Shown: positions 2,731 through 63,785 of the stretch, piece after piece
How positions within the stretch are numbered: the stretch's first letter is position 1
Layout: each line of letters begins with the position of its first letter
Assembly: GCA_964628585.1 (NCBI GenBank)
Contig: CAZVMH010000002.1
Span: forward strand, 97,751 to 161,750
Reading direction: 5' to 3'
Source of the DNA: an uncultured Candidatus Saccharibacteria bacterium
Lineage (GTDB): Bacteria; Patescibacteriota; UBA1384; XYA2-FULL-43-10; 1-14-0-10-43-13
Length of the DNA: 64,000 nt
Position numbers and translations under genes: made by a program
The notes under the pieces: generated by a model
What the model was told of the DNA's origin: nothing
Seen by the model: the letters and a program-made list of their open reading frames with translations, nothing else
Database searches by the model: none

Positions 2731-5277
2731 ATGAATCAATACAGTTATTCAAATGGAGGATATAATAGCGGAGTCGAATCAGCCGGCCTTGCCTGGTGGA
2801 TTTTTGCGTTAATTAGTATTGCAATTGGAATTTTGGGCTATATCGCGTATTTAGCGATTCGTAAATCAATAATTCGCAAAAATCAAATTGCTCTGACTCG
2901 TGATTGGGTAATGTATAAAATCTCTGTACCAAAGGAGTTTCATGCCGAGGAAGATGATCAGCGTAAAAATTTTCAAGAAATGATGGCAGTGGTAGAACCA
3001 TTTTATGCTAACCTAAATTCAATTTTTACTGATTCAATTGAAAAAAAATGGACCGGACAGGATCACATCTCATTAGAAATTATTGCAAAAAACAATTTGA
3101 TATACTTTTATGTCGGTTGTCCTAGAAGGATCTCTGAAATTGTAGTAAAAAATCTGCATGCCCAGTATCCACACGCCGAAATTGTATTAGACGATCAATA
3201 TTCAATATTTCCAGATAAACCTCTCAAAATTGGAGCGGCTATTTTGGGGTTAAAAAAGCCATTTATGTTTCCAATAAAAACGTATCGACTTTTGGAAGAA
3301 GACCCGCTTAATGCAATAACTAATTCTCTTTCAAAATTTAAGGAAGATGAATCAGCTGGAATTCAATTTTTACTTCGGCCAGCTAACTCAATGTGGCGTA
3401 TTGCGGTAGAGAGAACTGCCTACAATCTTCAACATGGTAAAGTGAAAATTACTTCAAACTCTCCAGGGTTAAAGGCAATGGATACTATTTTTAATGTTCT
3501 GGGATCGGTGGCAAAAACTGCGACGACAGGAGACTCAGAATCGAAAAAAGACGGATTGATCGACGAGAATAAGTTAACTCCAATGCAGGAGAGTCAGGTT
3601 AAATTACTTGGCGAAAAAGCCTCAAAACTTGGTTTTGAGTGCCAAATTCGTGTTATGACAGTATCACCAACACAGGAAATGGCAGATCAAAATGTGAAAG
3701 AAATCTGCTCCGCTTTTAGCCAATTTAACGCTCCTGAGTCCAACGGATTGGTGAAAAAAAGAGCTAAAAAGAAAGCGGAAGAAATTGCGAACTACGTTTT
3801 TCGTATTTTTGGACCCGGTAAAAGATTAATTCTAAACACTGAAGAGCTTTGCACAATATACCATTTACCAAACAGATTTTTAGAGGCACCTTCCATTGCT
3901 TGGCTTTTATCTAGAAAATCGGCTCCGCCGTTTAATCTACCAACCGAGGGGACGATCATTGGAAATAGTGTATTTAGAGGAGAGACAAAACCTATACGCA
4001 TGGCCGAAAAGGATAGATTGAGACATATTTATATGATAGGTAAAACTGGCGTAGGTAAAACAGTTTTGTTTCAGAATATGATTGCCCAAGATATTGCTGA
4101 AGGCAGGGGAGTATGCTACTTAGATCCGAATGGAGATGCAGCTGAGTGGATTTTGCGTCATGTGCCGAAGGAACGGGCAGACGATGTAATATATTTTGAT
4201 CCTTCCGATATTGAGAGACCTTTTGGCCTAAACATGCTTGAGTGGAAAACACCAGAGCAAAGAGACTTTTTGGTTCAGGAAGCAATTCAGATGTTTTACA
4301 AACTATTTGATCCAAATCAAACCGGTATGGTTGGGCCACAGTTTGAACATTGGATGCGAAACGCTTCGCTTACTTTAATGATGCATCCAGATGGTGGCAC
4401 TATCATTGATATCCCAAGACTTTTCACAGATCCAGATTTTGAAAAAGATAGAACAAAATATGTGACAGATCCGGTTGTAAAATCGTTTTGGGAGAAACAG
4501 ATGGCAAAGACAGCTGACTTTCACAAGTCTGAAATGTTAAACTACTTCACCTCGAAATTTGGTCGTTTTATGACCAACGATATGATGAGAAACATTTTGG
4601 GTCAAACTAAATCTTCGTTTGATTTTCGCGAAGTAATGGATAATAAAAAAATACTAATTTGTAATCTTTCTAAAGGAAAGATAGGGGAGATTAATACTTT
4701 TCTTTTAGGTATGATCATTGTTTCAAAGTTGGCGATGGGAGCATTTTCGCGTCAGGACATTAACGAAGAAGAGAGAGTACCATTTTTCTTATATGTAGAC
4801 GAGTTTCAGAACTTTATTACCGATGTCTTTGCCACAATACTTTCGGAATCCAGAAAATATAAATTGGCTCTCAACATTACAAATCAATATATTGCTCAGC
4901 TAGACGACAAGGTTCGCGAAGCAGTTATTGGTAATGCTGGTACCTTACTTGCTTTTAGAATTGGAGCAGCTGATGCAGAGTTTTTAATAAAAGAGTTCGA
5001 TCCTGTTAAGGCAGATGATATGACTAGTATCGATAAATACAATTTCTACATTAAGATGTTGATAGATGGTTCTCCGACAAAACCGTTCAATGGTTTAGGT
5101 ATTTGGCCAGACAATCCTGAAGGTAATATTGAATTAGGAAACTCTATAAGGGAATTGTCTCGTTTAAAGTTTGGTCGTCCCCGTGAAATTGTGGGTGCTG
5201 AAATTTTAGAACGGTCCAAAGTCGATGTTATAGATTTGCCAGGAATTGGGGCGACCGACAACAATTCAAAATTATAG
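2731..5277 (+). CDS. VirD4/TraG/TraD-family type IV coupling protein-like P-loop ATPase with N-terminal transmembrane helix and long novel N-terminal domain
   Basis: N-terminal hydrophobic helix WWIFALISIAIGILGYIAYLAI. Walker A is HIYMIGKTGVGKT. A DPNGD motif follows, matching the T4CP DPKGE motif. Walker B is YVDEFQNF, compared with the TraG-family DEFxxLG. Confidence 0.65.
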   Translation: MNQYSYSNGGYNSGVESAGLAWWIFALISIAIGILGYIAYLAIRKSIIRKNQIALTRDWVMYKISVPKEFHAEEDDQRKNFQEMMAVVEPFYANLNSIFTDSIEKKWTGQDHISLEIIAKNNLIYFYVGCPRRISEIVVKNLHAQYPHAEIVLDDQYSIFPDKPLKIGAAILGLKKPFMFPIKTYRLLEEDPLNAITNSLSKFKEDESAGIQFLLRPANSMWRIAVERTAYNLQHGKVKITSNSPGLKAMDTIFNVLGSVAKTATTGDSESKKDGLIDENKLTPMQESQVKLLGEKASKLGFECQIRVMTVSPTQEMADQNVKEICSAFSQFNAPESNGLVKKRAKKKAEEIANYVFRIFGPGKRLILNTEELCTIYHLPNRFLEAPSIAWLLSRKSAPPFNLPTEGTIIGNSVFRGETKPIRMAEKDRLRHIYMIGKTGVGKTVLFQNMIAQDIAEGRGVCYLDPNGDAAEWILRHVPKERADDVIYFDPSDIERPFGLNMLEWKTPEQRDFLVQEAIQMFYKLFDPNQTGMVGPQFEHWMRNASLTLMMHPDGGTIIDIPRLFTDPDFEKDRTKYVTDPVVKSFWEKQMAKTADFHKSEMLNYFTSKFGRFMTNDMMRNILGQTKSSFDFREVMDNKKILICNLSKGKIGEINTFLLGMIIVSKLAMGAFSRQDINEEERVPFFLYVDEFQNFITDVFATILSESRKYKLALNITNQYIAQLDDKVREAVIGNAGTLLAFRIGAADAEFLIKEFDPVKADDMTSIDKYNFYIKMLIDGSPTKPFNGLGIWPDNPEGNIELGNSIRELSRLKFGRPREIVGAEILERSKVDVIDLPGIGATDNNSKL

Positions 5278-7061: not shown

Positions 7062-10000
7062 ATGGAATACTTTGTTTTCGTTATAATAGCGGTTTTAATA
7101 GCGGTACCTTGGTACCTTATTTCTGCGATGAAAAAAACTAGAAACGAACAAAGGAAAATTGATTGGCACTCAAATTTAAAGTTAACTACTTTGCGCATTG
7201 ATGTGCCAAAAAATAATGATAAAGCGCCTCTTTCGGCTGAGCAGATGTTCGCTGCTATTCATGGTATATATTCAGCATCATCTTTAGAGCAATACCATTT
7301 AAGTTTTGAATTAGTAGCAAAAGATAAGTTTATTCAATTTTATGTCACAGTTCCTACTCACCTTAAAGATTTTGTTGAGGGACAAATTTATGCTCAGTAT
7401 CCAACAGTAGAGATAAGTGAAGTTCCAGACTTTACGACAGGCAAGAAAGCACACGAATTGAACTTTTCTCTTTGTGAACTAAAAATGACAAAACCGGATG
7501 TCTACCCAATTCGTTTTTTTGACAGTTTCGACGTAGATCCGCTTTCAGGCATTACTTCGGTGATGGGGAAGCTTGGTCAAAACGAAGAAGTTTGGTTTCA
7601 ACTAGTTACTAAGCCAGTTGGAGACGAGTGGCAAGACAAAGGCAATAGTATTGTAAGTAGTGTTCGTGCAGGTAAAAAACCTGGTGGTCAGGCGATATTT
7701 GATTCGTTTATTTCGGGATTTAAAAACTTTTTGAAAATATTTTTGGCTCATGCTATAAATCCTTCAGCTGAAATAGCAGAGGAAAAACCATCTGAAATAA
7801 AACTACCTTCAACCGTGGAAGAAGCACTCAAAGGGATAGAACAAAAAATTACAAAATTGGGGTTTGAGTCAAAAATTCGTATACTCTGTATTGCAAACGA
7901 TCCAATGACAGCCTCTGTAAAATGTCAGAGCATTGCGGCAGCTTTTAAACAATTTAACACTACAAATTTAAATGGTTTTGTTTCTGGCGAAATTAAAAAA
8001 AATGATTTCGATGCTTGGCAAATGTTTGTTAACAGGGAATTCGTAGATAAAGGTAATATTTTTAACATTTCAGAGTTAGCCTCTATCTATCACTTACCCA
8101 ATCAAACAGTTGAAACGCCAAATATAGTCTGGTCTGGTTTTAAGAAAGGCGAACCACCTGCAAACTTACCCCTTGATTCAAACACTCCAGCAGAAACTTT
8201 AACAGCAATCGGGTCTACAAATTTTAGAAATGTCTATGCTGATTTTGGTATTAAACTCGATGATCGAAGACGTCACATTTATATTATTGGTAAGTCAGGT
8301 ACAGGTAAATCTACTTTAATTGAAAATATGGCCATAGATGATGTTTATGAGGGCAGGGGAGTAATTATAGTTGATCCTCATGGAGAATTGGCGGAAAAAA
8401 TTTTATCATGCGTTCCAACAGAAAGAATTAAGGATGTAATAATTTTTGATCCATCTGATCGTGGTTTTCCAGTAGCATTCAACCTTTTAGAAATGGTAGA
8501 TGATGATTTTAAGGGCATGGTTGCTTCTGGTTTTGTCGGGATTTTTAAGAAAATCTTTGGTGAATCTTGGGGCCCTCGTCTAGAGCATATTTTACGAAAT
8601 ACCGTTTTGGCTTTACTTGATAATCCAAACTCAACAATGCTGGATATCCCAAGAATGTTGACAGACAATCACTTTCGAGACAAGGTTGTAACAAAAGTTA
8701 AAGATCCAGTGATTCGTGACTTCTGGGTTAATGAATTTGCTCAATATGATGCTAAATTTAGGACAGAAGCGGTTTCTCCAATTTTAAACAAGGTTGGTCA
8801 GTTTCTGGCAACTGCAACTATCAGAAATATTGTAGGGCAACCTCATTCCAAAATAAATATTCGTGAAATTATGGATCAGAAGAAGATACTGGTTGTTAAT
8901 CTATCTCGCGGAAAAATTGGTGAAGATAATTCTGCCTTACTTGGTGCCATGATGATTACAAAAATACAGCTTGCGGCAATGAGTCGAGCTGATGTTACAG
9001 TCGATAAAAGAGAAGATTGTTTTCTGTATGTAGATGAGTTTCAAAACTTTGCTACTGATTCCTTTGCCGTAATTTTGTCTGAGGCGAGAAAGTATAACTT
9101 GTGTTTGACAATGGCAAATCAATATATCGAACAGATGCCAGAAAGTGTTAGAAGTGCTGTTTTTGGTAATGCTGGTACAATAATTGCTTTTCGTGTTGGT
9201 GGAACCGACGCAAGCTTTTTAGTTCGAGAATTTGAGCCAGTTTTTGACGCAAATGATATGGTTAATCTAGATAAGTTTAATATTTATATTAAACTTTTGA
9301 TAGACGGTATTTCTGGACCAGCTTTTTCAGCAAGAACCTTCCCACCTGTGCAAAAAATTGCCGGAAATGCAGATGAAATTTTAACATATTCTAGAGATCA
9401 TTATTCTGCTCCACGTGCGCTAGTAGAAGAGAGAATTGCTAATCGAGATGAAGAAGAAAAGAAAGAAATGTTGGCAGAAGCAGAAGCATTTAAATCTGGT
9501 GGGCTAGAAGCTTTGTTGGTAAAAAAGGGGACAACACCAAACACAATACCACCTGCGGTTGAGACAATAGAACCAAAAGAAATTGTTCCAAAAAAAGAAG
9601 AAAAAGAGGAAAAAATTATTAAGGAAAAAACGGAAAAGAAACCATCAAAACCTCGAGTATTTAAATATCAAAATATTATTGGAGATAAAATCTATAAAGA
9701 ACAAACTGCTAAAGGGGGAGTGAAGTGGTTTATTGGTGAGAGTATAGATTGGGAAAAAATGAAAGAAACTGAGGTAGAAATTGGTCCTGAAGCTGAGAAA
9801 ACAATTGAACTAGCTAAAAAAGTTGCTCACGAATCGGAGCATAGATCTATTCATCAATCAGGTAGTCCATCAAAAATAGAGAAGAAAGAAGAAATCTCAA
9901 ATAGTGTAATCGAAGATAAAACACAAGAGGAAGAAACACAAGCACCCAATGTGAAAGAAGATAATATATCCGAAAAAAAACCAGTCGAAAAAATCGATGA

Positions 10001-10175
10001 TAAAGCAGGGGAGTCTCTTCCTAAAAAAAATGATGATATCCCAAAAGTAGATACAGATAACGGTACTAATGTTTCAAATCAAAACACAACGCAAACAAAT
10101 AATTCAGATAATAATCCTGGCCCTCAAGTCTTAAAGTCAGGTCACTTACAAGACGGAGAAGAGGAAAAACTCTGA
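7062..10175 (+). CDS. VirD4/TraG/TraD-family type IV coupling protein-like ATPase, paralog of 2731..5277, with long low-complexity K/E-rich C-terminal tail
   Basis: N-terminal TM helix. Walker A is HIYIIGKSGTGKST. Motifs DPHGE and YVDEFQNF are present. Other blocks are shared with 2731..5277: IYHLPN, KILxxNLSRGKIGE and GNAGTxxAFRxG. Confidence 0.65.
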   Translation: MEYFVFVIIAVLIAVPWYLISAMKKTRNEQRKIDWHSNLKLTTLRIDVPKNNDKAPLSAEQMFAAIHGIYSASSLEQYHLSFELVAKDKFIQFYVTVPTHLKDFVEGQIYAQYPTVEISEVPDFTTGKKAHELNFSLCELKMTKPDVYPIRFFDSFDVDPLSGITSVMGKLGQNEEVWFQLVTKPVGDEWQDKGNSIVSSVRAGKKPGGQAIFDSFISGFKNFLKIFLAHAINPSAEIAEEKPSEIKLPSTVEEALKGIEQKITKLGFESKIRILCIANDPMTASVKCQSIAAAFKQFNTTNLNGFVSGEIKKNDFDAWQMFVNREFVDKGNIFNISELASIYHLPNQTVETPNIVWSGFKKGEPPANLPLDSNTPAETLTAIGSTNFRNVYADFGIKLDDRRRHIYIIGKSGTGKSTLIENMAIDDVYEGRGVIIVDPHGELAEKILSCVPTERIKDVIIFDPSDRGFPVAFNLLEMVDDDFKGMVASGFVGIFKKIFGESWGPRLEHILRNTVLALLDNPNSTMLDIPRMLTDNHFRDKVVTKVKDPVIRDFWVNEFAQYDAKFRTEAVSPILNKVGQFLATATIRNIVGQPHSKINIREIMDQKKILVVNLSRGKIGEDNSALLGAMMITKIQLAAMSRADVTVDKREDCFLYVDEFQNFATDSFAVILSEARKYNLCLTMANQYIEQMPESVRSAVFGNAGTIIAFRVGGTDASFLVREFEPVFDANDMVNLDKFNIYIKLLIDGISGPAFSARTFPPVQKIAGNADEILTYSRDHYSAPRALVEERIANRDEEEKKEMLAEAEAFKSGGLEALLVKKGTTPNTIPPAVETIEPKEIVPKKEEKEEKIIKEKTEKKPSKPRVFKYQNIIGDKIYKEQTAKGGVKWFIGESIDWEKMKETEVEIGPEAEKTIELAKKVAHESEHRSIHQSGSPSKIEKKEEISNSVIEDKTQEEETQAPNVKEDNISEKKPVEKIDDKAGESLPKKNDDIPKVDTDNGTNVSNQNTTQTNNSDNNPGPQVLKSGHLQDGEEEKL

Positions 10176-23560: not shown

Positions 23561-23938
23561 TCAGAACAAATTCCTGATATGTGGAAGAAATACTAATACA
23601 AAAACTACTGCAGCAATGATGGCAGCAATAAAAACAGCACCGGCCATAGCATCTTTTACAACTCGGATTGTGCTGTGCTTTTGCGGATGCAATAGGTCAA
23701 AAGTTTTTTCTATGGCAGTGTTTATAATCTCAATAGCAAAAACTAATATCACTGCCATAAATAAGACAGCGGCTTCTAGCCTGGAAACGCGGAGTAAGTA
23801 GGCAATAATACCTACACCTATGGAAATTAATGCATGGACACGAGCGTTTTGTTCATTAAGTATCAGATACCATACACCGTTAAAAGCGTATTTAAAACTA
23901 CGAAAGAATTTCTTGTAATTAAATTTCGTGTAAGTCAT
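23561..23938 (-). CDS. dgkA: diacylglycerol/undecaprenol kinase DgkA family
   Basis: Three TM helices. EIINTAIE motif. Confidence 0.75.
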   Translation of the reverse strand: MTYTKFNYKKFFRSFKYAFNGVWYLILNEQNARVHALISIGVGIIAYLLRVSRLEAAVLFMAVILVFAIEIINTAIEKTFDLLHPQKHSTIRVVKDAMAGAVFIAAIIAAVVFVLVFLPHIRNLF

Positions 23939-26524: not shown

Positions 26525-26564
26525 AAAACTATGATAGCTGGTGCGAAGTTTGTTCGCAAATTTT

Positions 26565-26597
26565 TTCTAAAACAAAAGGGCCCTTGCCAGGGGCCCC
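26565..26597 (-). terminator. GC-rich intrinsic terminator for the GC-rich PlsY-fusion gene
   Basis: A GGGCCC-ttgccag-GGGCCC hairpin with a T-run on the minus strand. A second hairpin, gtcgaagg-attagt-cctttcgac, lies at 26608..26632. Confidence 0.6.
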
Positions 26598-26638
26598 ACG
26601 GAACTTTTGTCGAAGGATTAGTCCTTTCGACGGGCATG

Positions 26639-28558
26639 TTACTCCGCGTCAGCTTCTCCTTGATAAAGCTGCTGTTCGTTGTGTTTTCTGGCGACGACCT
26701 CAAAACCGAATCTCTTGCAAGCTTCGGTATAGAAGTCAACGTCATCTTCTGTGACGTCTGCTGCCAGCGAGGCGTGCTCGTAGGCCTGAGTCAGGGCGAG
26801 GATTATTGCTTCCACCAGACATGCTGGGAAAAGCGGAACGCCCTGATCCTGCCCAAAGTGGAAATCAATCGGACAGGAGATGTTACCAGGCAGTTTCATA
26901 AGCCCGCAACGAATCAGCGTGACATCTGGCCGAAGTTCCAGAATCTTATCCGCAACGTCTGGCGGATACGCCACATCGAGAAGATAACAACCCTCTTTCA
27001 AGAGATGGCAGTTTTCTGCTGTGATCAGAGGCTCAGGTGAGCTAGTACAACAGAAAACGATGTCGGCAAGTGAAAGTGCACTCAAGTCGTCGCTCGAGAG
27101 GACGGTGCCGATATTGATCTGTCGGTCCGATCTCGATGAGTTGCCTCTTAGGAAAGCGATCGACTCCTTGGTCTCTCTGGCCACGGTGTCATAGAGACGA
27201 TGTCCAATCAGACCTCGAGCACCAAGAGCTGCCATGACCAGATCTGAAAGTTGTCGGTCTCCTAGCACTTTCTTTAGGGCAATCAGAGTAGCGCTAACGG
27301 TATTAGCAGCACCGTTGTCTATCTGAATGGTCAGACCTCTCTTCTTGCACCAGAGATCGAGGTCCTTGCCTCCTCTGGCTTCAGATGAGAGCAAACCACC
27401 TAGACCCAACACAGTCGCACCGAGTCGTTGAGCCAAAACAGCAGCAGCTTTGAGAAGCGCATAGAGTAATCTGTTGTGGGACGATTTCTTGAGCTTCTCT
27501 TGAGCTTGAGAAATGCGACGAAGAACGTGCTCCATTCCTTGATTGCCTTTCGTTATGGCAGTAATGACCTTGTCGCATCCTCGAACCAAAATCGCTGCAG
27601 TCTCGAGAAGAGCGTAAAGCGACTTGTTGTATGACACCTCTTTGATCATCTCTGGTATCTGGATGATGCCCAGAAGAATAACCCGCACCTTCCTGCCATC
27701 TTTGGTCACGATGCCAGTGATCTCACCGCACTCCATGACAGGACAAAGCCGAAGAAGCATTCGCACGAAGCGTTCGCTAATCTTCTTGCCCTCTAGCGCT
27801 TTGATCACAAGCTTGCCACCAGGCAGCTGCTTCAAGTCGTTCAAGTCTCTATTGTGCATTGCGAAGGCGGCTACTACTTCATCGCCAACATTGTGCACTC
27901 CACGCTTCTCTGAAAACTTCGGCTCGGTACCATTTCGGAGACGAACAACGTTTCTTGCATGCATTCTGATGACTGCGATAGGCACAGCCAGAAAGACTCC
28001 TAGTATTGCAGGACTGGCTTGGAAGATATAGGCAAAAACTGGCGTGCTCAACGCCGCCAACATTGAGGCCATAGACATATAGCCGGTAGAAAAGAGCACT
28101 ACCAGCCAAATGCCAAATGCACTTAGCGCCACTTTGTAGTTAAGAGCGAGTGCTCCACCACAGAGTGTTGCTACCATCTTACCTCCGCTGAACATACCTT
28201 CGGCAAGAAAGAAGTAAAATGAAAAGCCATGACCAATTCCGGCCGCGATCATGCAGAAAGCAGCGGGGATCTCCCCGATATACATTTTGCAGATCATAGT
28301 CGGAACGAATCCTTTGGCAAGATCTAGTAGCAGAACGGGAATTCCCACTTTCCATCCCAGAACTGCTTTCACGTTGGTGAAGCCAATGTTACCGCTTCCC
28401 CAGTCTCTGATGTCAAAGTGCTTCCCCTTGAATACCTTTGCCAGCCAATACCCGAAGGGCATCGAACCGCACAGGTATGAGAGGACAATAAATCCGATCC
28501 ATATAAGCATACGACCTCCTTTTTCCCCGTCTGTTTGCTTCGGCGTGAAGTATAACAA
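26639..28558 (-). CDS. plsY: fusion protein: N-terminal PlsY (acyl-phosphate:glycerol-3-phosphate acyltransferase) plus C-terminal acyl-ACP-reductase-like Rossmann domain
   Basis: The N-terminal PlsY has GSGNIGFTNV and is multi-TM. The C-terminal GLIGHRLYD, ADIVFCCTSSPEPLITAENCHLLKEGCYLLDVAYPP and CPIDFHFGQDQG...ACLVEAIIL resemble the cyanobacterial acyl-ACP reductase family, from memory. The gene is markedly GC-rich relative to its flanks. Confidence 0.65.
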   Translation of the reverse strand: MLYFTPKQTDGEKGGRMLIWIGFIVLSYLCGSMPFGYWLAKVFKGKHFDIRDWGSGNIGFTNVKAVLGWKVGIPVLLLDLAKGFVPTMICKMYIGEIPAAFCMIAAGIGHGFSFYFFLAEGMFSGGKMVATLCGGALALNYKVALSAFGIWLVVLFSTGYMSMASMLAALSTPVFAYIFQASPAILGVFLAVPIAVIRMHARNVVRLRNGTEPKFSEKRGVHNVGDEVVAAFAMHNRDLNDLKQLPGGKLVIKALEGKKISERFVRMLLRLCPVMECGEITGIVTKDGRKVRVILLGIIQIPEMIKEVSYNKSLYALLETAAILVRGCDKVITAITKGNQGMEHVLRRISQAQEKLKKSSHNRLLYALLKAAAVLAQRLGATVLGLGGLLSSEARGGKDLDLWCKKRGLTIQIDNGAANTVSATLIALKKVLGDRQLSDLVMAALGARGLIGHRLYDTVARETKESIAFLRGNSSRSDRQINIGTVLSSDDLSALSLADIVFCCTSSPEPLITAENCHLLKEGCYLLDVAYPPDVADKILELRPDVTLIRCGLMKLPGNISCPIDFHFGQDQGVPLFPACLVEAIILALTQAYEHASLAADVTEDDVDFYTEACKRFGFEVVARKHNEQQLYQGEADAE

Positions 28559-28615
28559 TATTTAATATTATTGGCAAATAAATTCGAGGTCTTTTATTAA
28601 AAAACCCTCCCCCCC

Positions 28616-45363: not shown

Positions 45364-45888
45364 CTATTTGCGCTTGCGAAGAATGGTTGCGGCACCGGTG
45401 ACTGCAAGAACGAAGAAGCTTGAGGGCTCGGGTACCGGTTCGCAGCTTACATCGAATCGGTAGTTCCCGCCAGGCAGGCATATCCATTCGATTGTGCCTG
45501 CCGCAGGGAAGGGCACCTCTGTAATGCTTCCCTGGGGGTCGATGAAGGTGGCACTTAGAGTGTAGCCTTCCTGGCCACTCCACCACATCTGCAAGTTGCA
45601 TTCGGAATCGCATCCGACCAGCTGACCAGTCCAGGTAGACAGGATGCTTTGGTGCCAATCAGCCCAGAGCAATCTCCCGTCCAAACCCTCTAAGACAATG
45701 TCCGCACCATTTTCCGACAGAGTCCCGATTACATCATGTTCGTCGGGTCCGTCTGAAGCGTAACTGGCCACATATCCAGCTACGCCTCGATTTTCCGCGA
45801 AAGCGGGCAACATCATTCCAAACTCGAGCGTGTTTGCACAAGTCGAACTGACAATGCCGAGAAGCAATACGACTGTAAGAAGAAACAT
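45364..45888 (-). CDS. secreted PEP-CTERM-anchored protein (GC-rich, foreign-looking)
   Basis: Signal peptide MFLLTVVLLLGIVSSTCA. C-terminus VPEPSSFFVLAVTGAATILRKRK is VPEP plus TM plus a basic tail. GGAGG SD. GC much higher than flanks. Confidence 0.7.
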   Translation of the reverse strand: MFLLTVVLLLGIVSSTCANTLEFGMMLPAFAENRGVAGYVASYASDGPDEHDVIGTLSENGADIVLEGLDGRLLWADWHQSILSTWTGQLVGCDSECNLQMWWSGQEGYTLSATFIDPQGSITEVPFPAAGTIEWICLPGGNYRFDVSCEPVPEPSSFFVLAVTGAATILRKRK

Positions 45889-46019
45889 TTTCAACTCCTT
45901 CACCTGCTTTCTATGAAGATAGCATATAATATAGCACAAAAATGCAAAAAAGTCAATATCAATTTGCTAAAACCTCATGATAAATATTATAATGTAATCA
46001 TTAATCATCTAGGAGGAAT

Positions 46020-50044: not shown

Positions 50045-51250
50045 TTATCTTCGCCTTTTCAGGATGACACCGTGCTCCTGCCGGAGCTGGGTGTTCCAGG
50101 CGTTGCAGGCGATGTCGCCCGCACTGTTGACGGCGACTGCTTCGCCGTCTAGCCTCCATATGGGGAGCGTCTTACCATCCAACACCCAAGTGCCTAGGTC
50201 GGTAACTTTGGCGAGGTCAATCATCTTGCCGTTCTCCCAGAGAAACGGTCTCAGATAGAGGTTGTGGGTAGCGGCGTCATACGAGATCGCTGTTCCCACT
50301 GCCTGGCCACGGTTATTGATGCAGTTGACTCGGCTGTTCGTGTACCCTGGAAGGGTACCCATCTCGTCTACCTGCCTGACACCGTCTTCGTCCAGGTACC
50401 AGTACAGAGCATGCGATGTCCTTTCGAAGGAGTATGCGGTCTGGTAGTTTCCTACCGTCTGACCACAGTTGTTTACGTCCTTCGCCTCCGCTTTCGCGAA
50501 AGTTACGAGCGGCATAGGCAGGGGTTGTACTCCGCCCATGTTGCTCCATAGTGCCGGCGTCAGGTGATTCGACGAATTTCCGGCAACTAGGCCATTGTCA
50601 CTCATCCCCCTGACTCCGTAGAGGGGAAGGAGCTTGGCGTTGAACCTTCTGTCGGAAACGAATGTCTTCCAGTACCCGCCGACGTTCATTTCTCCGCAGA
50701 ATGCATTGCCAGTGATGCTGGTAACCCAGGTCGCCGCAGATCCCAGCGGCAGACCCTTAAGGGTGCTTGTCAGATCGACAATGCTTTCCTTGCTGATGTT
50801 GCCCAGGAACGCCCGCTGTACGGGCCATTGATATCCTGGCAGGGTCTGGAAACCTATTCCGCCGAACTGGCCGGAATTGTTGATGGCCGAACAGACAGCT
50901 GTTCCCTCAACCCGCTTCAACTTGCCGTCTTTCAACCAGCAGGCACCGGTTTTGTTGCCCTGCGCGTCGTAGGTCCAGCCAACCGATAGCCCAGCGTCGT
51001 TGATGTCCATGACGTTGGACCATCCTTCAGCCATCAACTCAACGACGTTGTACAGGGCCTTTCTTCGGTTCCCTCTCGTCATAACTGGTCCAGTGACCGT
51101 TTCGAACTGCTCATTGGGTGAGAGCATTGGAACCAGCTCACCCTGTTCGCGCAATGCCAGGTTTTCTGGACCGGCAATTGGCGACAAATCTGCCGCCTGC
51201 GCACCCAAGCACATGGCCAGTGCCATGATCATGACTAGCATCATCTTTAC
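50045..51250 (-). CDS. secreted repeat protein resembling HAF-family extracellular repeats
   Basis: Signal peptide MMLVMIMALAMCLGAQAA. Probable GTG or ATG start at 51250..51242 with an AGGAGG SD. Repeats AINNSGQ, MSDNGLVAG, INNRGQAVG and VNSAGDIA. GC-rich. Confidence 0.55.
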   Translation of the reverse strand, partial: VKMMLVMIMALAMCLGAQAADLSPIAGPENLALREQGELVPMLSPNEQFETVTGPVMTRGNRRKALYNVVELMAEGWSNVMDINDAGLSVGWTYDAQGNKTGACWLKDGKLKRVEGTAVCSAINNSGQFGGIGFQTLPGYQWPVQRAFLGNISKESIVDLTSTLKGLPLGSAATWVTSITGNAFCGEMNVGGYWKTFVSDRRFNAKLLPLYGVRGMSDNGLVAGNSSNHLTPALWSNMGGVQPLPMPLVTFAKAEAKDVNNCGQTVGNYQTAYSFERTSHALYWYLDEDGVRQVDEMGTLPGYTNSRVNCINNRGQAVGTAISYDAATHNLYLRPFLWENGKMIDLAKVTDLGTWVLDGKTLPIWRLDGEAVAVNSAGDIACNAWNTQLRQEHGVILKRRR

Positions 51251-51429
51251 CACGTTTACGCCTCCTGTGTTTGCCCACTTTGCAAAAGCTGGGCAATATG
51301 CCCATATTATACAACAAATTAATATAAAATGCAATAGCAACAGCCGAAAACAAGAATCTCTTATTTACAAATACAAAGGGGGCTCCGCGCGTTTCCACAC
51401 GGAGCCCCTGTTACTTCTCCTTCCTCTCC

Positions 51430-51945
51430 TCACGGTTCTACGGCGACGGCAAAGACGATTGTGCCGTCTACTACGGGTAGTGTAGTCAGATAGTTCGGCT
51501 GTAAGTAGTCGTCCTTGACAATCAGGGCGTAGATTACGCCGCTGTGCGCGGGCGCGATCCACGAATTGTCATTTCTGACGCCGATGCTGGTGCTATCCAG
51601 CGGTTGAACATAGTAGCCATTGGTATAGCTGTAGACAATGACCTTTCTGCCGGTCATTGAGCCAGCTATTTGGCCATAGGCAACCTGGTTTGTGCCTTCG
51701 TAGATGCTAGACGAGCTGTCCGGGTGGACAATGGAGTCAAACTGGACAACCTCGTTGATGCGTATAGCCGTTGCCGTTTCCGACCAGGGCGGAAACGATC
51801 TGGTTGGCGGAGCAGGCTTCATGTAGACAGCCACGCCGAGCCTATACCCGAACTGAAGACCCTTGTCGGTCCCGCCACCGCCACCACACCCTGCCATGAC
51901 GATTGCCGTTACGATACAGACGAGAACAAGCGCTATCGTTCTCAT
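51430..51945 (-). CDS. lipoprotein (lipobox VMAGC followed by Gly-rich linker)
   Basis: MRTIALVLVCIVTAIVMAGCGGGGG. GC-rich. A GC-rich terminator hairpin, ggggctccg...cggagcccc, lies at 51378..51410. Confidence 0.6.
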   Translation of the reverse strand: MRTIALVLVCIVTAIVMAGCGGGGGTDKGLQFGYRLGVAVYMKPAPPTRSFPPWSETATAIRINEVVQFDSIVHPDSSSSIYEGTNQVAYGQIAGSMTGRKVIVYSYTNGYYVQPLDSTSIGVRNDNSWIAPAHSGVIYALIVKDDYLQPNYLTTLPVVDGTIVFAVAVEP

Positions 51946-51960
51946 TTCCCTCTCTCCTTC

Positions 51961-53238
51961 CTACTGCACTGTGACATTCTGAATGTAGATCTCGGTGTTC
52001 TTGAAGATCTCTTTCGGTTCCTTCTTCACCAGATCTACGGTGAAGATCTGACAGCTAGTGTTGAGCAGAATCGTCTTGCTGTCGGGAGTCCAGCAGAGAT
52101 TCTGAACTGAGCCCCAGAACTTCGGAATTCCCAGCAAGCCGTATCCTCCCATTCCGGCTGGCGCGTCGAGTCCTCTTTCCTTGGCCTCAAGAGTATCGAC
52201 CAGTTTGACTGCCTTCTCATCTCCTACATTCCAGAGCCAGAGCCCGCCGATTGCCAAGAAGGCGTACTTCTTGCCGTCTGGTGAGAAGGCCGCATCGATA
52301 ATGTAGGGAATGTCGACGAACGGATCGCCGGCTTCCTTTGGCGCTTTCTTGTAGAGGCGCTTCTCGGTGAAGTCGTAGACATACAGCGTCGGGTCATCTA
52401 GCGACTTAACGAAGTTCCTCTCTTCTTCTGTGTCGAAGATGCCCATGACCTGCTTCGGCGAGAAGAATCCGAGTCTCTTTCCGTCCTTAGACCACTCGAG
52501 GAACCTTGTCATCTGCAGGTAGTTGATCTTCATGTTGATGACGTTTGTGGCAGGGCTCGGTAAAGGAGTCAGATGCTTTGACTTCCTCATGTCAATGACG
52601 CTCGCTTGGACGGGGACGGTCGCGACATAGTGACGATACAGCGAGGACTGCTTGTCTTCCGCCTTCGTGGCATTTTCGTCATAAATGACATACGCGAAGG
52701 CCAACTTTGTCGCGCTTGGCGACATTGTTGGGTTGAACAGAAGATGTCGCACCGGTGTATGGAGCAGACAAGTTCGCTTACCCGTGACCGGGTTTAGCCG
52801 CCAGATAGATGACTCGTTCTTGTCACCCATTGTGGCGTAGAGTATGTCCTTTCCATCCGGTGACCAGCTATAGTGCGTATCGAAGCTGGCCTCCATGTCT
52901 TCCTCGACGATACGGGGAATGCGTCGAATCTCCTTGCCGTCTTTCCCATAGACGCAGATAAAGTCCTTGACCAACCCCGTATCTGCAGTGACAAGCGAGA
53001 CCAAGATCCTGCCACTCTTGTCTGGTGCAGGATACACATGGCTGATGTTCGAGACCGAAATGTTCCAGTCCCGCAGATTCTTGCCGTCAAGGCCCATGGA
53101 GAAGATATCGCACTTGGTCGGCTTCTCCTTGTCCTTGCTTGCAGTGAAGTACACCGTGCTTGCAGGTACTACTGCGCCCTGTGCTACTAGAGCGAGAGCC
53201 AGAAGCACTACTACCAACAGAAAACATAGCCGGTTCAT
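51961..53238 (-). CDS. secreted TolB-like beta-propeller (PD40/WD40-like repeats) protein
   Basis: Start taken at the internal ATG at 53238 (MNRLCFLLVVV...), with an AGGAGG SD 7 nt upstream. Repeats YSWSPDGKDILY, AFSPDGKKYAF and CWTPDSKTIL. Confidence 0.6.
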   Translation of the reverse strand: MNRLCFLLVVVLLALALVAQGAVVPASTVYFTASKDKEKPTKCDIFSMGLDGKNLRDWNISVSNISHVYPAPDKSGRILVSLVTADTGLVKDFICVYGKDGKEIRRIPRIVEEDMEASFDTHYSWSPDGKDILYATMGDKNESSIWRLNPVTGKRTCLLHTPVRHLLFNPTMSPSATKLAFAYVIYDENATKAEDKQSSLYRHYVATVPVQASVIDMRKSKHLTPLPSPATNVINMKINYLQMTRFLEWSKDGKRLGFFSPKQVMGIFDTEEERNFVKSLDDPTLYVYDFTEKRLYKKAPKEAGDPFVDIPYIIDAAFSPDGKKYAFLAIGGLWLWNVGDEKAVKLVDTLEAKERGLDAPAGMGGYGLLGIPKFWGSVQNLCWTPDSKTILLNTSCQIFTVDLVKKEPKEIFKNTEIYIQNVTVQ

Positions 53239-53422
53239 TCGAATCCTCCTGTTCCCAAGGCTGAATTTTGGTGCAACCATCGGCGCAAGTATACAATTTT
53301 TACTCAATTTATTCAATAGAGTAAGCAATATTAAAAAAAGACTCCTACAGTTACAGCAGATGAGAGTCTAGTTTGTTGATATTATATTACAATTTGTCGA
53401 TTACGCGTTCAAAAACAGGAAA

Positions 53423-56449: not shown

Positions 56450-58867
56450 CTATTTCTTGCTCCGTGAAAATAATTGTGCCAATCGAGATTTTTGTTTTTG
56501 TTGCATATACAAATGCTTCTGAAATTCAATAAAAGTGGCACGAATTATCTCAGACTCTCCAAGTACTTTTTCTGCATCAGCCACTGACTGATACTTCAGA
56601 TTTATCAATTTTGGTAGCTTATCCTCACTAAGTTCTTCAACCCCTTCGCCAATATATTTTGACAGAACAAACAGCAAAAACTCTTTTTGTTTATCGTCAA
56701 GTCCATTCAAAATTGCACTTTTTGCTTTAGCTACTCGTTCCTCTCTCGATATAGGTTTCAAAGCGAATGAAATATATGCCAGCACGTCGAACAAGTCAGA
56801 ATTTTCAGCGTCAATTAGTTTTTGCAATGACCTCAGTTTTTCTAGGTCATACCCCATTTCAGAAATATTATACAAAAACGCATCTCTAGTTTTCGGATTA
56901 GACCAAATTTTTCTTAATTCTTCTTCTGACTTAAATAAACTTGGTAGATCGCCATACATATTTTGAATAAATTCTTCGGAAGATATTGGTTTGCCGTCAG
57001 CACTCCAAAAAGATGTAGAGACCATGTGCTGGATTTCTCTTTCTTTTCCATCTCGTAGTTTTATCTTTACCTTTTTCTTTGGTTTGTCCTCGCATTCGCA
57101 AGGATCCATTCCACATACAGGGCAAATTTTAGGTGGTTTTTCGCATTGGCACGGGTCCTGCCCACAAACGGGGCATTCTTTTGGTGGTTTTTCGCATATG
57201 CATGGATTTTCACCACATTTTGAACAAACTTCATTTATCGGCTCGCCATCCCATTCTGGATCGGAAAAATGATGATAAGCGTCAACAAAATCAATAATTG
57301 TAAAATATTCCTTGCCATCAAAAAGCCTTGTTCCCCGGCCAATGATTTGCTTAAACTCTATCATCGAATTCACAGGTCGCATTAGAACGATATTCCGAAT
57401 ATTCCGCGCATCAACGCCTGTTGAAAGCTTTTGTGATGTGGTTAATATGGTTGGAATCGTTTTTTCATTGTCTTGAAAATCTCGGAGGAATTGATCCCCG
57501 CGAGCGCCATCGTTGGCAGTAACACGAACACAGTAATTTGGCTCTTTGCTATCTTTCATTTGATTGACCAATTCTCGAACGGCGGCGGCGTGGTCCTGAG
57601 TGGCGCAAAAAATAATTGTCTTTTCGTTTTGATTTATTTCGTCGAGAACGATCCTGACTCTTTTTGCTTCTCGCTCTTTTATTTCAATAATCCGATTGAA
57701 ATCCGGTTCGGTATAAATTTTGCCTTCTTCGACCTCGCCCTCGATAAGTTCATCGTCAGAAGTGTAGACATAATCGTCGAGAGTTGTTTTGATCCGTTTT
57801 ACTTTAAACGGTGTCAGAAAACCGTCGTTTATTCCCTGTTTCAATGAATAAATATAAACTGGCTCGCCAAAGTATTTATATGTATCAATGTTATCTTTTC
57901 TCTTTGGAGTGGCAGTCAAACCAAGCTGAACGGCAGGTGAAAAATATTCGAGAATGCCTCGCCAATTGCCTTCGTCGTTTGCACCGCCTCTATGGCATTC
58001 GTCGATAATAATAAAGTCAAAAAAGTCTTTTGGATATTCACCAAAATAAGGAGTATTACCAGTGCCACTCATAAATGTCTGAAAAATTGTAAAAAATACA
58101 CTACCGTTTGTCGGCACAGCACCTTTTTTGCGAATATCGGCTGGGTTAATACGGACTAAAGCGTCTTCGGAAAACGCCGAGAACGAGTTGAAAGCTTGAT
58201 TAGCTAAAATATTTCTATCAGCCAAAAATAATATCCTTGGTCTACGCCCACCATCACGATTTAGATTCCATCGTGTATGAAAAAGCTTCCAAGCGATTTG
58301 AAAAGCGATAAATGTTTTGCCCGTACCAGTTGCAAGAGTTAGCAAAATTCGATCTTTATTCTCAGCTACGGCATCAAGAGCATTGTTTACGGCATTTTCT
58401 TGGTAATATCGAGGTGTTTTAGTGCCACCCATATCTTCAAAAGGAATTGAGGCAAATTTTTCTTTCCAGTCATTGTGCGAGGAAAAAGTTAAATTCCATA
58501 ATTCATCAGGAGTTGGAAATTTATCAATCGTTTTTTCCTTACCGGATTTCATCGATATTTCATAAATTTCTTTGCCGTTGGTTGAATAGGTATAATCAAT
58601 TTCTAATTTCTTGGCATATGCTTTGGCTTGAGCCACTCCTTCGCCAACACCGAGCTCGTCTTGTTTGGCTTCAATCACCGCTAGTTTTTGGTTCTTATAA
58701 ACCAAAATATAGTCGGCAATTTCTTTTTTGCCACGTACACCACCAGCCTGAATTTTGCCTTCGGTAATATGAAATTCACGAAGAATCTTTGATCCCTCGA
58801 CTTCACCCCAACCACATTCCTTTAGTTTCGGGTCAATATATTCAGCTCTTGTTTCTGCTTCGTTCAT
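56450..58867 (-). CDS. hsdR: type I restriction enzyme R subunit HsdR with C-terminal triplicated Cys-repeat insertion
   Basis: Typical HsdR N-terminus MNEAETRAEYIDPKL. Walker A LATGTGKT. DECH box IIIDECHRG. The insertion is three KPPKxCPVCGxDPCxCE repeats. Confidence 0.9.
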   Translation of the reverse strand: MNEAETRAEYIDPKLKECGWGEVEGSKILREFHITEGKIQAGGVRGKKEIADYILVYKNQKLAVIEAKQDELGVGEGVAQAKAYAKKLEIDYTYSTNGKEIYEISMKSGKEKTIDKFPTPDELWNLTFSSHNDWKEKFASIPFEDMGGTKTPRYYQENAVNNALDAVAENKDRILLTLATGTGKTFIAFQIAWKLFHTRWNLNRDGGRRPRILFLADRNILANQAFNSFSAFSEDALVRINPADIRKKGAVPTNGSVFFTIFQTFMSGTGNTPYFGEYPKDFFDFIIIDECHRGGANDEGNWRGILEYFSPAVQLGLTATPKRKDNIDTYKYFGEPVYIYSLKQGINDGFLTPFKVKRIKTTLDDYVYTSDDELIEGEVEEGKIYTEPDFNRIIEIKEREAKRVRIVLDEINQNEKTIIFCATQDHAAAVRELVNQMKDSKEPNYCVRVTANDGARGDQFLRDFQDNEKTIPTILTTSQKLSTGVDARNIRNIVLMRPVNSMIEFKQIIGRGTRLFDGKEYFTIIDFVDAYHHFSDPEWDGEPINEVCSKCGENPCICEKPPKECPVCGQDPCQCEKPPKICPVCGMDPCECEDKPKKKVKIKLRDGKEREIQHMVSTSFWSADGKPISSEEFIQNMYGDLPSLFKSEEELRKIWSNPKTRDAFLYNISEMGYDLEKLRSLQKLIDAENSDLFDVLAYISFALKPISREERVAKAKSAILNGLDDKQKEFLLFVLSKYIGEGVEELSEDKLPKLINLKYQSVADAEKVLGESEIIRATFIEFQKHLYMQQKQKSRLAQLFSRSKK
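57078..57230 (-). repeat. three imperfect 51-bp tandem repeats encoding the Cys-rich repeats inside hsdR
   Basis: The core ggtggtttttcgca recurs with a 51-bp period. Confidence 0.6.
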
Positions 58868-63783: not shown

Positions 63784-63785
63784 GT

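What the first reader, a model, noticed from the sequence alone, without database searches (positions are those of the whole stretch)
26560..28600. GC-rich foreign-looking gene: PlsY fused to an acyl-ACP-reductase-like domain inside an AT-rich backbone
The 639-aa ORF has a clear PlsY N-terminus (GSGNIGFTNV, multi-TM). A C-terminal approximately 400-aa region has internal repeats (LLYALLETAAILV and LLYALLKAAAVLA). It ends in a Rossmann-like domain whose blocks line up with the cyanobacterial acyl-ACP reductase family (GLIGH; ADIVFCC...LLDVAYPP; CPIDFHFGQ). By eye, its GC is about 50%, against about 33% for both flanks. It has its own GC-rich terminator. This combination suggests recent horizontal acquisition. 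I do not know of a described membrane-anchored acyl-phosphate acyltransferase fused to a reductase.
Basis: partly seen in the sequence, partly recalled or inferred. Interest (0 to 1): 0.65.

Follow-up and report, generated by a model that had tools for sequence, protein, structure and literature searches.

The report
PlsY fused to acyl-ACP-reductase-like domain
This gene encodes a membrane enzyme for the first step of phospholipid synthesis (PlsY) fused to a cysteine/NADP-type acyl-handling domain; the fusion is conserved in tiny symbiotic (CPR) bacteria and may be their long-sought substitute for PlsX, the enzyme that normally makes PlsY's substrate.

Summary
The gene is 26639-28510 (-), 623 aa from an ATG preceded by AGGAGG, not the 639-aa TTG ORF. 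It encodes a canonical PlsY (residues 1-195) fused to a complete acyl-ACP-reductase (AAR)-fold domain (residues 211-617). That domain keeps the catalytic Cys and the GxGxxG/Arg NADP site. GC is 0.50 (GC3 0.53) against GC3 0.29±0.05 for 47 other window genes (z 5.2). The gene has its own promoter-like site and GC-rich terminator.

"Recent acquisition" is not supported. A relative carries the gene at the same site, with the same GC excess and the same divergence as its flanks (90% vs 82-97%). The fusion is a rare, old family of about 40 clusters in Patescibacteria/Berkelbacteria. Both halves form matching clades, and gpsA usually lies immediately downstream.

The PlsY half keeps its acyl-phosphate "phosphate hole". 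CPR genomes with PlsY and PlsC but no PlsX have been reported. A FakB-like protein is also known fused at the same PlsY C-terminus. I therefore propose, by inference (about 0.4), that the AAR-like domain supplies or interconverts acyl-phosphate through an acyl-S-Cys intermediate, as a non-homologous PlsX analogue. A true aldehyde-forming reductase remains the main rival. I found no published description of this fusion.

The parts
26639..28510 (-). Complete coding sequence of the PlsY~AAR-like fusion protein (623 aa; ATG at 28510, TAA stop at 26639-26641)
   Evidence: ORF listing. 100% identical to database protein P0001, 623 aa. The N-termini of 8 homologues align to this ATG. AGGAGG lies 4 nt upstream.
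28515..28520 (-). Shine-Dalgarno sequence AGGAGG
   Evidence: Read directly from the sequence.
28549..28577 (-). Sigma-70-like promoter match: TTGCCA, 17-nt spacer, (TG)TATACT
   Evidence: Consensus scan, 10 of 12 positions with an extended -10 TG. This is a pattern match only.
27926..28510 (-). PlsY domain (residues 1-195). Seven predicted TM helices. Motifs GSGNIGFTN (38-46), GH (93-94), SGGKMVAT (108-115), HARNVVRL (184-191)
   Evidence: PF02660 E 8.8e-40; TIGR00023 144 bits against cutoff 137.2. AF2 model vs PlsY 5xj5: TM 0.91, rmsd 1.9 A. Motif positions. Roles of the phosphate-hole residues from PMC5700162.
27881..27925 (-). Conserved inter-domain linker (residues 196-210, EPKFSEKRG...)
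   Evidence: E196, K198, R203 and G204 are invariant in the 9-sequence alignment. E196 is 100% conserved in 40 fusions.
26660..27880 (-). AAR-fold domain (residues 211-617): N-terminal subdomain plus Rossmann subdomain
   Evidence: TIGR04058 E 3.2e-8 and PigE N-domain E 2.4e-7. Profile vs PDB: AAR 1.1e-13, PigE 2.3e-9, GluTR 7.4e-7. Foldseek: AAR 6jzy E 3.8e-11, TM 0.66-0.69; TAD 9e56 TM about 0.6.
27485..27637 (-). Lineage-specific 51-aa insertion (residues about 292-342) containing a diverged partial duplication of the LLYALLKAAAVLA helix
   Evidence: Absent from all 8 homologues. The 153-nt gap is visible in the DNA alignment with L002. pLDDT is below 50 for residues 292-315 and 336-344. 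The exact boundaries are ambiguous because of the duplication.
27203..27223 (-). Dinucleotide-binding motif GARGLIG (residues 430-436). An Arg in AFLRGN (452-457) follows at the position of the AAR TARN motif
   Evidence: G430 and G433 are 100% conserved in 40 fusions. The motif aligns to AAR VGATGDIG / TARN. NADP preference is inferred, not tested.
26819..26821 (-). Codon of Cys564, the equivalent of the AAR catalytic Cys294
   Evidence: Aligns to the Cys in AAR 'MFAC'. Conserved in 40 of 40 fusions and in 66 of 66 family members, including AAR. The role of Cys294/Cys2238 is described in the TAD preprint.
26567..26597 (-). Intrinsic-terminator-like hairpin (7-bp stem, 6 G-C pairs) followed by TTTTGTTTT
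   Evidence: Terminator scan; sequence read directly.

Best explanation
What it is (confidence about 0.95): a single-gene transcription unit encoding a bifunctional membrane protein. The N-terminal part is a canonical seven-helix PlsY, the acyl-phosphate:glycerol-3-phosphate acyltransferase, with all substrate-binding motifs intact. Its cytoplasmic C-terminus continues through a conserved short linker into a complete AAR-family domain. That domain keeps the active-site cysteine and an NADP-type dinucleotide site. It is a member of a rare, old family of such fusions in Patescibacteria (CPR) bacteria.

How it most likely works (inferred, about 0.4): the AAR-like domain loads an acyl chain onto Cys564 as a thioester. 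The donor would be acyl-ACP or acyl-CoA, or a fatty aldehyde oxidised with NADP+. Phosphate then attacks the thioester, as in GAPDH or aspartate-semialdehyde dehydrogenase. The labile acyl-phosphate is released beside the PlsY active site, PlsY transfers the acyl group to glycerol-3-phosphate, and the phosphate is recycled. The domain would thus be a non-homologous functional replacement for PlsX. It might also run in reverse, as PlsX does, converting acyl-phosphate to a thioester.

Origin: the GC excess reflects either an old transfer into the common ancestor of this organism and its relative, or a family-wide compositional bias. It is not a recent insertion.
For: Shown:
- Both domains are identified by HMM, profile and fold.
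- PlsY motifs, including the acyl-phosphate 'phosphate hole' (GGK-x-V-A-T and His94), are intact in the window protein and throughout clade I. Their roles are given in PMC5700162. PlsY here therefore still needs acyl-phosphate.
- The catalytic Cys is conserved in 40/40 fusions and 66/66 family members. The GxGxxG glycines are 100% conserved.
- About 40 fusion clusters exist. The PlsY tree and the C-domain tree both recover the same clade containing the window protein. The two halves have therefore co-evolved for a long time.
- gpsA, which supplies glycerol-3-phosphate, lies immediately downstream in 7 of 12 loci from other lineages, with a 4-bp overlap in 5 of them, and also follows the truncated copy in L091. 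This indicates a glycerolipid-synthesis operon.
- An AcpP-type ACP gene lies 1.4 kb from the fusion in L086.

Literature:
- The only PlsY fusion previously noted is a FakB-like (DegV) acyl-phosphate carrier at the same C-terminal position (PMC5700162).
- For the related TAD domain, off-loading of the acyl-S-Cys by a non-hydride nucleophile has been proposed (bioRxiv 10.1101/2024.10.28.620694).

Parallel case: the AAR-like domain is also fused C-terminally to a PlsC/Aas-type acyltransferase (P0093). In Aas, an acyl-activating domain occupies that place.
Against: - No activity has been tested.
- The NADP-type site is strictly retained, which a pure PlsX-like transacylase would not need. This favours a redox step, either reduction to an aldehyde or oxidation of an aldehyde.
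- No invariant Arg/Lys/His that could form a phosphate site near the Cys was found across all 40 fusions. Only H219 qualifies, and it is family-wide.
- Absence of plsX or fakAB in the fusion-bearing genomes could not be checked. Only about 238 kb of such genomes was available, and my PlsX probe had no positive control.
- The Nealsonbacteria PlsY of the literature report was not shown to be a fused one.
- The source of fatty aldehydes for the oxidative variant is unclear.
- This lineage lacks the gpsA linkage.
Confidence: 0.45

Rival explanations
1. The C-terminal domain is a true AAR-type reductase. It reduces acyl-ACP, acyl-CoA or acyl-phosphate with NADPH to a fatty aldehyde at the membrane. 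This could feed an ether or vinyl-ether lipid, a fatty alcohol, or a control valve on acyl flux. PlsY would act as membrane anchor and partner.
For: This is the only demonstrated chemistry of the family (AAR; the PigE N-domain). The Cys and the NADP-type site, with an Arg at the AAR 'TARN' position, are strictly conserved. Fusions of reductases with glycerolipid acyltransferases exist in myxobacterial ether-lipid synthesis (ElbD; from my own knowledge).
Against: It would fuse two enzymes that compete for the same acyl donor. No aldehyde-consuming partner (ADO, alcohol dehydrogenase, aminotransferase) is seen in any of the 13 fusion loci. In a CPR-enriched cell fraction, all 72 intact polar lipids were acylglycerols, with no ethers (PMC7242380). 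TIGR04058 scores 33 bits against a cutoff of 450.
Confidence: 0.22
2. The domain is a keto-reductase or dehydrogenase that supplies or repairs the glycerol backbone. Examples would be a 1-acyl-DHAP reductase or a GpsA substitute.
For: It has a Rossmann fold with weak matches to many dehydrogenase families. This lineage has no gpsA next to the gene.
Against: Homology extends over the whole AAR fold with an invariant thioester-forming Cys. Most relatives carry a genuine gpsA directly downstream, so the function is not redundant with GpsA.
Confidence: 0.05
3. The AAR-like domain is non-catalytic. It would be an NADP(H)- or acyl-ACP-sensing regulator of PlsY, or a docking site for ACP.
For: Activity is unknown, and the related TAD domain showed no turnover in vitro.
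Against: The nucleophile and cofactor glycines are 100% conserved over a family whose members are only about 35-45% identical. This argues for catalysis.
Confidence: 0.08
4. Origin rival: the gene was acquired very recently by this genome from a GC-richer donor, or the region is an assembly chimera.
For: GC3 z-score is 5.2. The GC island coincides exactly with one gene that has its own promoter-like site and terminator. The window holds other GC-rich, foreign-looking islands, including a PEP-CTERM protein. The synteny differs from the YchF-fusion-gpsA-S6-SSB-EFP order seen in other lineages.
Against: L002, from a different run, has the same junctions and the same GC excess; L001 is co-linear too but may rest on the same reads as the window's record. 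The fusion is 90.1% identical between the two organisms, within the range of the flanks at 82-97%. It is nested in the Patescibacteria-type fusion clade. No close donor exists: the next relatives are at most 44% identical by BLASTP. No copy is found on plasmids or phages.
Confidence: 0.08

Closest known systems
PlsY (acyl-phosphate:glycerol-3-phosphate acyltransferase; PF02660/TIGR00023; structure 5XJ5)
   Same: Residues 1-195 score above the equivalog cutoff. All three motifs and the phosphate-hole residues are present. The predicted fold superposes at TM 0.91.
   Different: Characterised PlsY proteins are about 200 aa and stand alone. This one carries a 410-aa cytoplasmic domain on its C-terminus.
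Cyanobacterial acyl-ACP reductase AAR (TIGR04058; 6JZQ)
   Same: Two-subdomain fold. The catalytic Cys sits in the same helix-start motif (PAC vs FAC). GxGxxG and a following Arg are present. Homology covers the full length.
   Different: About 15-17% identity, and 33 bits against the family cutoff of 450. There is no ADO partner. The protein is membrane-tethered to PlsY. 'TTG' near the Cys is replaced by 'DNG'. It forms a separate clade from AAR and from the stand-alone homologues.
PlsX (acyl-ACP:phosphate transacylase, PF02504)
   Same: Only the proposed role is shared: making or interconverting the acyl-phosphate that PlsY uses, at the membrane.
   Different: No sequence or fold relationship. 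PlsX needs no nicotinamide cofactor and forms no Cys thioester.
PlsY~DegV(FakB-like) fusions of Bellilinea/Thermanaerothrix (noted in PMC5700162)
   Same: An acyl-phosphate-handling partner is fused to the C-terminus of PlsY. The authors interpreted this as substrate channelling of a labile intermediate.
   Different: The partner domain is a fatty-acid-binding protein of the kinase system, not a Cys/NADP enzyme.
Phosphorylating Cys dehydrogenases (GAPDH, aspartate-semialdehyde dehydrogenase, ArgC) and glutamyl-tRNA reductase
   Same: Acyl-S-Cys chemistry that links aldehyde, thioester and acyl-phosphate (or an activated ester) using NAD(P). GluTR is detectably homologous (E 7e-7).
   Different: Substrates are small and soluble. 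The catalytic domains differ. For GAPDH, ASADH and ArgC the link is only a mechanistic analogy.
TAD (putative terminal amidation domain, carmabin pathway; 9E4S-9E56) and the PigE N-terminal domain
   Same: AAR-fold domains used as fused modules. Each has an invariant Cys next to the nicotinamide. For TAD, a non-reductive release of the acyl-S-Cys has been proposed.
   Different: They are NRPS/PKS or aminotransferase partners in secondary metabolism. TAD binds NAD rather than NADP.

Membership tests
PlsY (TIGR00023 / PF02660) | Sequence scores above the curated family cutoffs | tested here: met
   TIGR00023: 144.0 bits against cutoff 137.2. PF02660: 136.9 bits against 24.1.
PlsY (TIGR00023 / PF02660) | Three conserved motifs, including the acyl-phosphate 'phosphate hole' (His92; Lys104-Gly-Val-Ala in Aquifex numbering) and the His/Asn of motif 3 | tested here: met
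   GSGNIGFTN, G-H94, SGGK111-M-V-A-T and H184-A-R-N187 are present. Roles come from PMC5700162.
PlsY (TIGR00023 / PF02660) | Seven-TM fold | tested here: met
   AF2 model vs 5xj5: TM 0.91, rmsd 1.9 A over about 200 residues.
PlsY (TIGR00023 / PF02660) | Acyl-phosphate-dependent acylation of glycerol-3-phosphate | not testable with these tools
   Needs an enzyme assay. The conserved gpsA neighbour in relatives is supportive context.
Acyl-ACP reductase AAR (TIGR04058) | Sequence scores above the equivalog cutoff | tested here: not met
   33.3 bits against cutoff 449.7. It is a homologue, not an equivalog.
Acyl-ACP reductase AAR (TIGR04058) | AAR two-subdomain fold | tested here: met
   Foldseek 6jzy/6jzq E about 1e-10 to 1e-11, TM (target) 0.63-0.69. 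Profile E 1.1e-13 over AAR residues 47-335.
Acyl-ACP reductase AAR (TIGR04058) | [quoted passage not shown] | tested here: met
   Cys564 aligns with it and is invariant in 66 of 66 sequences.
Acyl-ACP reductase AAR (TIGR04058) | NADPH site | tested here: inconclusive
   GARGLIG and an Arg at the 'TARN' position are conserved. Whether the cofactor is NADP or NAD, and whether it is used at all, is inferred only.
Acyl-ACP reductase AAR (TIGR04058) | Works with aldehyde-deformylating oxygenase in alkane synthesis; produces fatty aldehyde | tested here: not met
   No ADO-like or other aldehyde-using gene appears in the window or in the fusion loci that were read. Aldehyde formation itself is not testable here.
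PlsX (PF02504) | Homology to the PlsX/phosphotransacylase fold | tested here: not met
   No PF02504 or PlsX hit in the Pfam, NCBIfam, PDB or fold searches. Only functional analogy is proposed.
Shikimate dehydrogenase AroE | AroE substrate-binding N-domain plus full-length family match | tested here: not met
   PF01488 matches only residues 492-542 (E 1.5e-6). There is no Shikimate_dh_N hit and no aroE model hit.

The most novel reading that the evidence does not exclude
The AAR-like domain is the missing acyl-phosphate-forming enzyme of PlsX-less CPR bacteria. It would be a non-homologous PlsX replacement that makes acyl-phosphate by phosphorolysis of an acyl-S-Cys intermediate and channels it directly into the fused PlsY. 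In its most novel form, the thioester comes from NADP+-dependent oxidation of a scavenged fatty aldehyde. Together with the co-operonic GpsA, that would give an ATP-free, redox-balanced route: fatty aldehyde + DHAP -> lysophosphatidic acid.
Probability: 0.35. Interest if true: 0.8.

Novelty: new variant of a known kind. Interest (0 to 1): 0.62.

Why it matters
CPR/Patescibacteria make up a large share of bacterial diversity. They have normal fatty-acid-based membranes but no recognisable complete lipid pathway. [quoted passage not shown]

A conserved fusion that places a thioester-forming Cys/NADP enzyme on the cytoplasmic tail of PlsY gives that question a concrete, testable candidate. It would also extend the AAR fold, known from alkane, prodiginine and possibly amide biosynthesis, into core membrane biogenesis. 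If the rival reading is right and the domain is a true reductase, it would instead point to unrecognised aldehyde- or ether-lipid chemistry in these organisms. Either outcome would change how lipid autonomy of CPR symbionts is scored from genomes. At present these proteins are annotated simply as 'PlsY'.

Tried and rejected
1. rRNA as the cause of the GC-rich stretches: Rfam found nothing in the window.
2. Shikimate dehydrogenase identity: rejected, because only a 51-residue Rossmann match exists.
3. Chimera: rejected; L002, from another run, has the same junctions, and L001 is co-linear though possibly built from the same reads.
4. Mobile-element carriage: tblastn against plasmids and phages found only ordinary PlsY matches, with no fusion.
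The 1.2 Mb of control loci also gave no hit, so the test is uninformative.
7. Context of the nearest stand-alone AAR-like genes in thermophilic Firmicutes: a conserved cluster with two unannotated genes and no lipid link, so no help on function.
8. Literature searches for PlsY with acyl-ACP reductase, Patescibacteria, Saccharibacteria or Berkelbacteria: no description of the fusion.
10. A direct DNA repeat search inside the gene found only a chance 19-mer. The duplication is too diverged for that tool and was seen by alignment instead.
11. Inter-domain geometry (distance from Cys564 to the PlsY phosphate hole) could not be read, because model coordinates and PAE are not returned.
Full report
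**Observation**

The finding's ORF exists at 26639..28558 on the minus strand, 639 aa from a TTG. The functional start is the ATG at 28510, giving 623 aa. A perfect AGGAGG lies 4 nt upstream. The identical database protein P0001 and every homologue begin there. A sigma-70-like match with an extended -10 lies at 28577->28549. A 7-bp, 6-GC hairpin with a T-run lies at 26597->26577, about 40 nt after the stop. The gene therefore looks like its own transcription unit.

GC is 0.49-0.515 across the gene and falls to about 0.33-0.42 in the genes on either side. GC3 is 0.528 against 0.288 ± 0.046 for 47 other genes of the window, z = 5.2.

The 'internal repeat' is real. It is a 51-aa (153-nt) insertion specific to this lineage, holding a diverged partial duplication of one helix. 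It is missing from all eight aligned homologues, including the 90%-identical one, and AF2 predicts it with low confidence.

**Identity of the two halves**

Residues 1-195 are a canonical PlsY. PF02660 gives E 8.8e-40, and TIGR00023 gives 144 bits against its equivalog cutoff of 137.2. The AF2 model (pLDDT 76, pTM 0.71) superposes on Aquifex PlsY 5xj5 at TM 0.91.

The residues that Li et al. (PMC5700162) showed to bind the substrates are conserved. These include the acyl-phosphate 'phosphate hole' (His92 and Lys104-Gly-Val-Ala, here H94 and K111-M-V-A) and motif 3 (His/Asn).

Residues 211-617 are a full-length homologue of cyanobacterial acyl-ACP reductase.
- The single sequence gives TIGR04058 E 3.2e-8, which is 33 bits and far below the 450-bit equivalog cutoff. 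It gives the PigE N-domain at 2.4e-7.
- A nine-sequence profile gives AAR 6jzq at 1.1e-13, PigE 4ppm at 2.3e-9 and glutamyl-tRNA reductase at 7.4e-7.
- Foldseek places AAR (TM 0.66-0.69) and the AAR-like 'TAD' domain of the carmabin pathway next after PlsY.
- Cys564 (P-A-C) aligns with the AAR acyl-enzyme nucleophile Cys294. GARGLIG aligns with VGATGDIG. An Arg follows at the position of the AAR 'TARN' motif.
- The Pfam Shikimate_DH hit covers only 51 Rossmann residues, so this is not AroE.

**Distribution and history**

The word-indexed search of 5.8 billion proteins found only nine relatives. All are fused, 572-623 aa, and 37-79% identical.

The exhaustive profile search with the C-terminal domain found 2,479 family members.
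- About 40 of the best 150 are PlsY fusions of 550-636 aa.
- The rest are stand-alone proteins of about 350 aa, or fusions to other modules. These include a PlsC/Aas-type acyltransferase (P0093), SRPBCC lipid-binding domains with or without PilZ, and AMP-binding + carrier + aminotransferase modules.

In named genomes the fusion occurs in Patescibacteria and Berkelbacteria MAGs, including a complete 929-kb chromosome.

An alignment of 40 fusions shows the Cys and both Rossmann glycines 100% conserved. It splits the fusions into two clades.
- Clade I has canonical PlsY motifs and includes the window protein.
- Clade II has altered motifs (HNLG / RGRG / WRHKENLGR).

Neighbour-joining trees, without bootstrap, of the PlsY half and of the C-terminal half both recover clade I as one group with the window protein nested inside. 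That group is separate from unfused PlsY of Fibrobacter, Chloroflexota, Cyanobacteria and Firmicutes, and from stand-alone AAR-like proteins and AAR itself. The fusion is therefore old, and its halves have evolved together.

**Genomic context**

gpsA (glycerol-3-phosphate dehydrogenase) follows the fusion in seven of twelve loci from other lineages, with a 4-bp overlap in five. It also follows the contig-truncated copy P0018 in L091. In two lineages the order is YchF-fusion-gpsA, and in L087 S6-SSB-EF-P follow. An AcpP-type ACP gene, which scores above the TIGR00517 cutoff, lies 1.4 kb away in L086. No PlsX, FakA/B, ADO or other aldehyde-using gene was seen in any locus.

In the window lineage the gene sits between an SLT transglycosylase and a SprT-like gene, S21 and YqeY, without gpsA.

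**Horizontal transfer**

The compositional anomaly is real, but 'recent acquisition' is not supported.
- An assembly from another run (L002) contains the gene at the same junctions. A second assembly (L001) is co-linear with the window, though it may be built from the same reads.
- L002 shows the same GC excess: 0.519 against 0.38-0.43.
- The fusion is 90.1% identical between the two organisms, within the range of the flanking genes at 82-97%. It has been inherited with its flanks since they diverged.
- In most other lineages the fusion, and gpsA where present, is also 3-10 GC points above its surroundings.
- No copy lies on plasmids or phages.
- The nearest other relatives are at most 44% identical by BLASTP.

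The best reading is an older transfer into the common ancestor from a GC-richer member of the same fusion-bearing group, or a family-wide bias. I cannot separate these two.

The window does contain other GC-rich, foreign-looking islands. One is a PEP-CTERM protein at 45.4-45.9 kb. Another is three secreted proteins at 50.0-53.3 kb with GC3 0.65. This genome does therefore take up GC-rich DNA.

**Mechanism (inferred)**

Four points are shown. PlsY is intact and still built for acyl-phosphate. The AAR-like domain keeps its thioester-forming Cys and its dinucleotide site. The two halves are joined by a conserved linker at the PlsY C-terminal segment that carries motif 3; Lu et al. 2007 place that motif in a cytoplasmic domain (from my own knowledge). 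Relatives place the gene in an operon with the G3P-producing enzyme.

Three points come from the literature.
- Probst et al. [quoted passage not shown] They asked explicitly how acyl-phosphate is made.
- Li et al. (PMC5700162) found no PlsX-PlsY fusions. They did find a FakB-like acyl-phosphate carrier fused to the PlsY C-terminus, and read it as channelling of a labile substrate.
- Rankin et al. proposed that in the AAR-like TAD domain the acyl-S-Cys is released by a nucleophile other than hydride.

From this I infer that the domain forms acyl-S-Cys564 from acyl-ACP or acyl-CoA, or from a fatty aldehyde plus NADP+. Phosphate then releases it as acyl-phosphate beside PlsY, as in GAPDH or ASADH. 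This would be a non-homologous PlsX analogue, possibly reversible. The parallel fusion to a PlsC/Aas-type acyltransferase (P0093) fits a general 'acyl-donor-supplying' role.

Several points count against this. The strict retention of the NADP-type site argues for a redox step and keeps a true aldehyde-forming reductase alive as the main rival. No conserved candidate phosphate site was identified. The absence of plsX or fakAB in these genomes could not be tested. Against the reductase or ether-lipid rival, CPR-enriched cells contained only acylglycerols, and no aldehyde-using partner is linked.

I put the acyl-phosphate-supply model at about 0.4, the reductase model at about 0.2, and other roles at about 0.15. 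The remainder is unassigned.

**Novelty**

Databases label these proteins simply 'PlsY'. I found no paper describing the architecture. It joins two known families in a new combination, so it is a new variant of a known kind. Its interest lies in making the CPR acyl-phosphate question directly testable.

Noticed in passing
window 50045-53328 (-) and 45364-45939 (-): Two further GC-rich islands (GC 0.52-0.55, GC3 0.57-0.66, against about 0.29 for the genome). One holds three secreted or lipoprotein-like genes: a DUF3466-like protein, an unknown protein, and a PD40/DPPIV beta-propeller. The other is a small protein ending in a PEP-CTERM sorting motif, which is odd for a CPR-like bacterium. Neither is rRNA (Rfam found nothing). 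They look like foreign DNA, possibly host-derived.
   Followed up: partly
window 56450-63822 (-): A type I restriction-modification operon, hsdM-(AAA_13)-hsdS-hsdR. A 772-aa AAA_13 ATPase is inserted between hsdM and hsdS. This recalls the PrrC/RloC anticodon-nuclease arrangement. That gene is extremely AT-rich (GC 0.28).
   Followed up: partly
window 2731-5277 (+) and 7062-10175 (+): Two large VirD4/TraG/TrwB-like coupling ATPases lie close together, separated by a sigma-70 region 4/HARE-HTH protein.
   Followed up: no
P0032-P0046 (representative search); alignment: A second clade of PlsY-like~AAR-like fusions, with amino-acid composition typical of GC-rich genomes. Its PlsY motifs are systematically altered: GSGN->xHNLG, GGKxVAT->RGRG, HxRNIxR->WRHKENLGR. 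The AAR-like Cys and Rossmann motif stay invariant. This suggests a different acyl donor or acceptor.
   Followed up: partly
P0093, P0061, P0069, P0074, P0137: The AAR-like domain is also fused to a PlsC/Aas-type acyltransferase, to SRPBCC lipid-binding domains (some with PilZ and HTH), and to AMP-binding + carrier + aminotransferase modules. It appears to be a widely reused acyl-handling module.
   Followed up: partly
L092 5495-9095, L094/L095 4260-9083: Stand-alone AAR-like genes number more than 5,200 clusters, mostly in thermophilic Firmicutes. They are variously annotated as shikimate dehydrogenase or NAD(P)H-binding protein. They sit in a conserved cluster after coaX and dus, together with genes of about 320, 175 and 300 aa that have no family assignment.
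   Followed up: partly
window 27485-27637 (-): A 51-aa in-frame insertion with a diverged tandem duplication lies inside the AAR-like domain. It is present here but not in the 90%-identical relative L002. It is predicted as a low-confidence helical excursion, and its effect on activity is unknown.
   Followed up: yes
window 23561-23938 (-): A prokaryotic diacylglycerol kinase gene lies next to ybeY, 2.7 kb from the fusion. It is the only other lipid-related gene found in the 64-kb window. No gpsA, ACP, plsC or plsX was detected here.
   Followed up: partly
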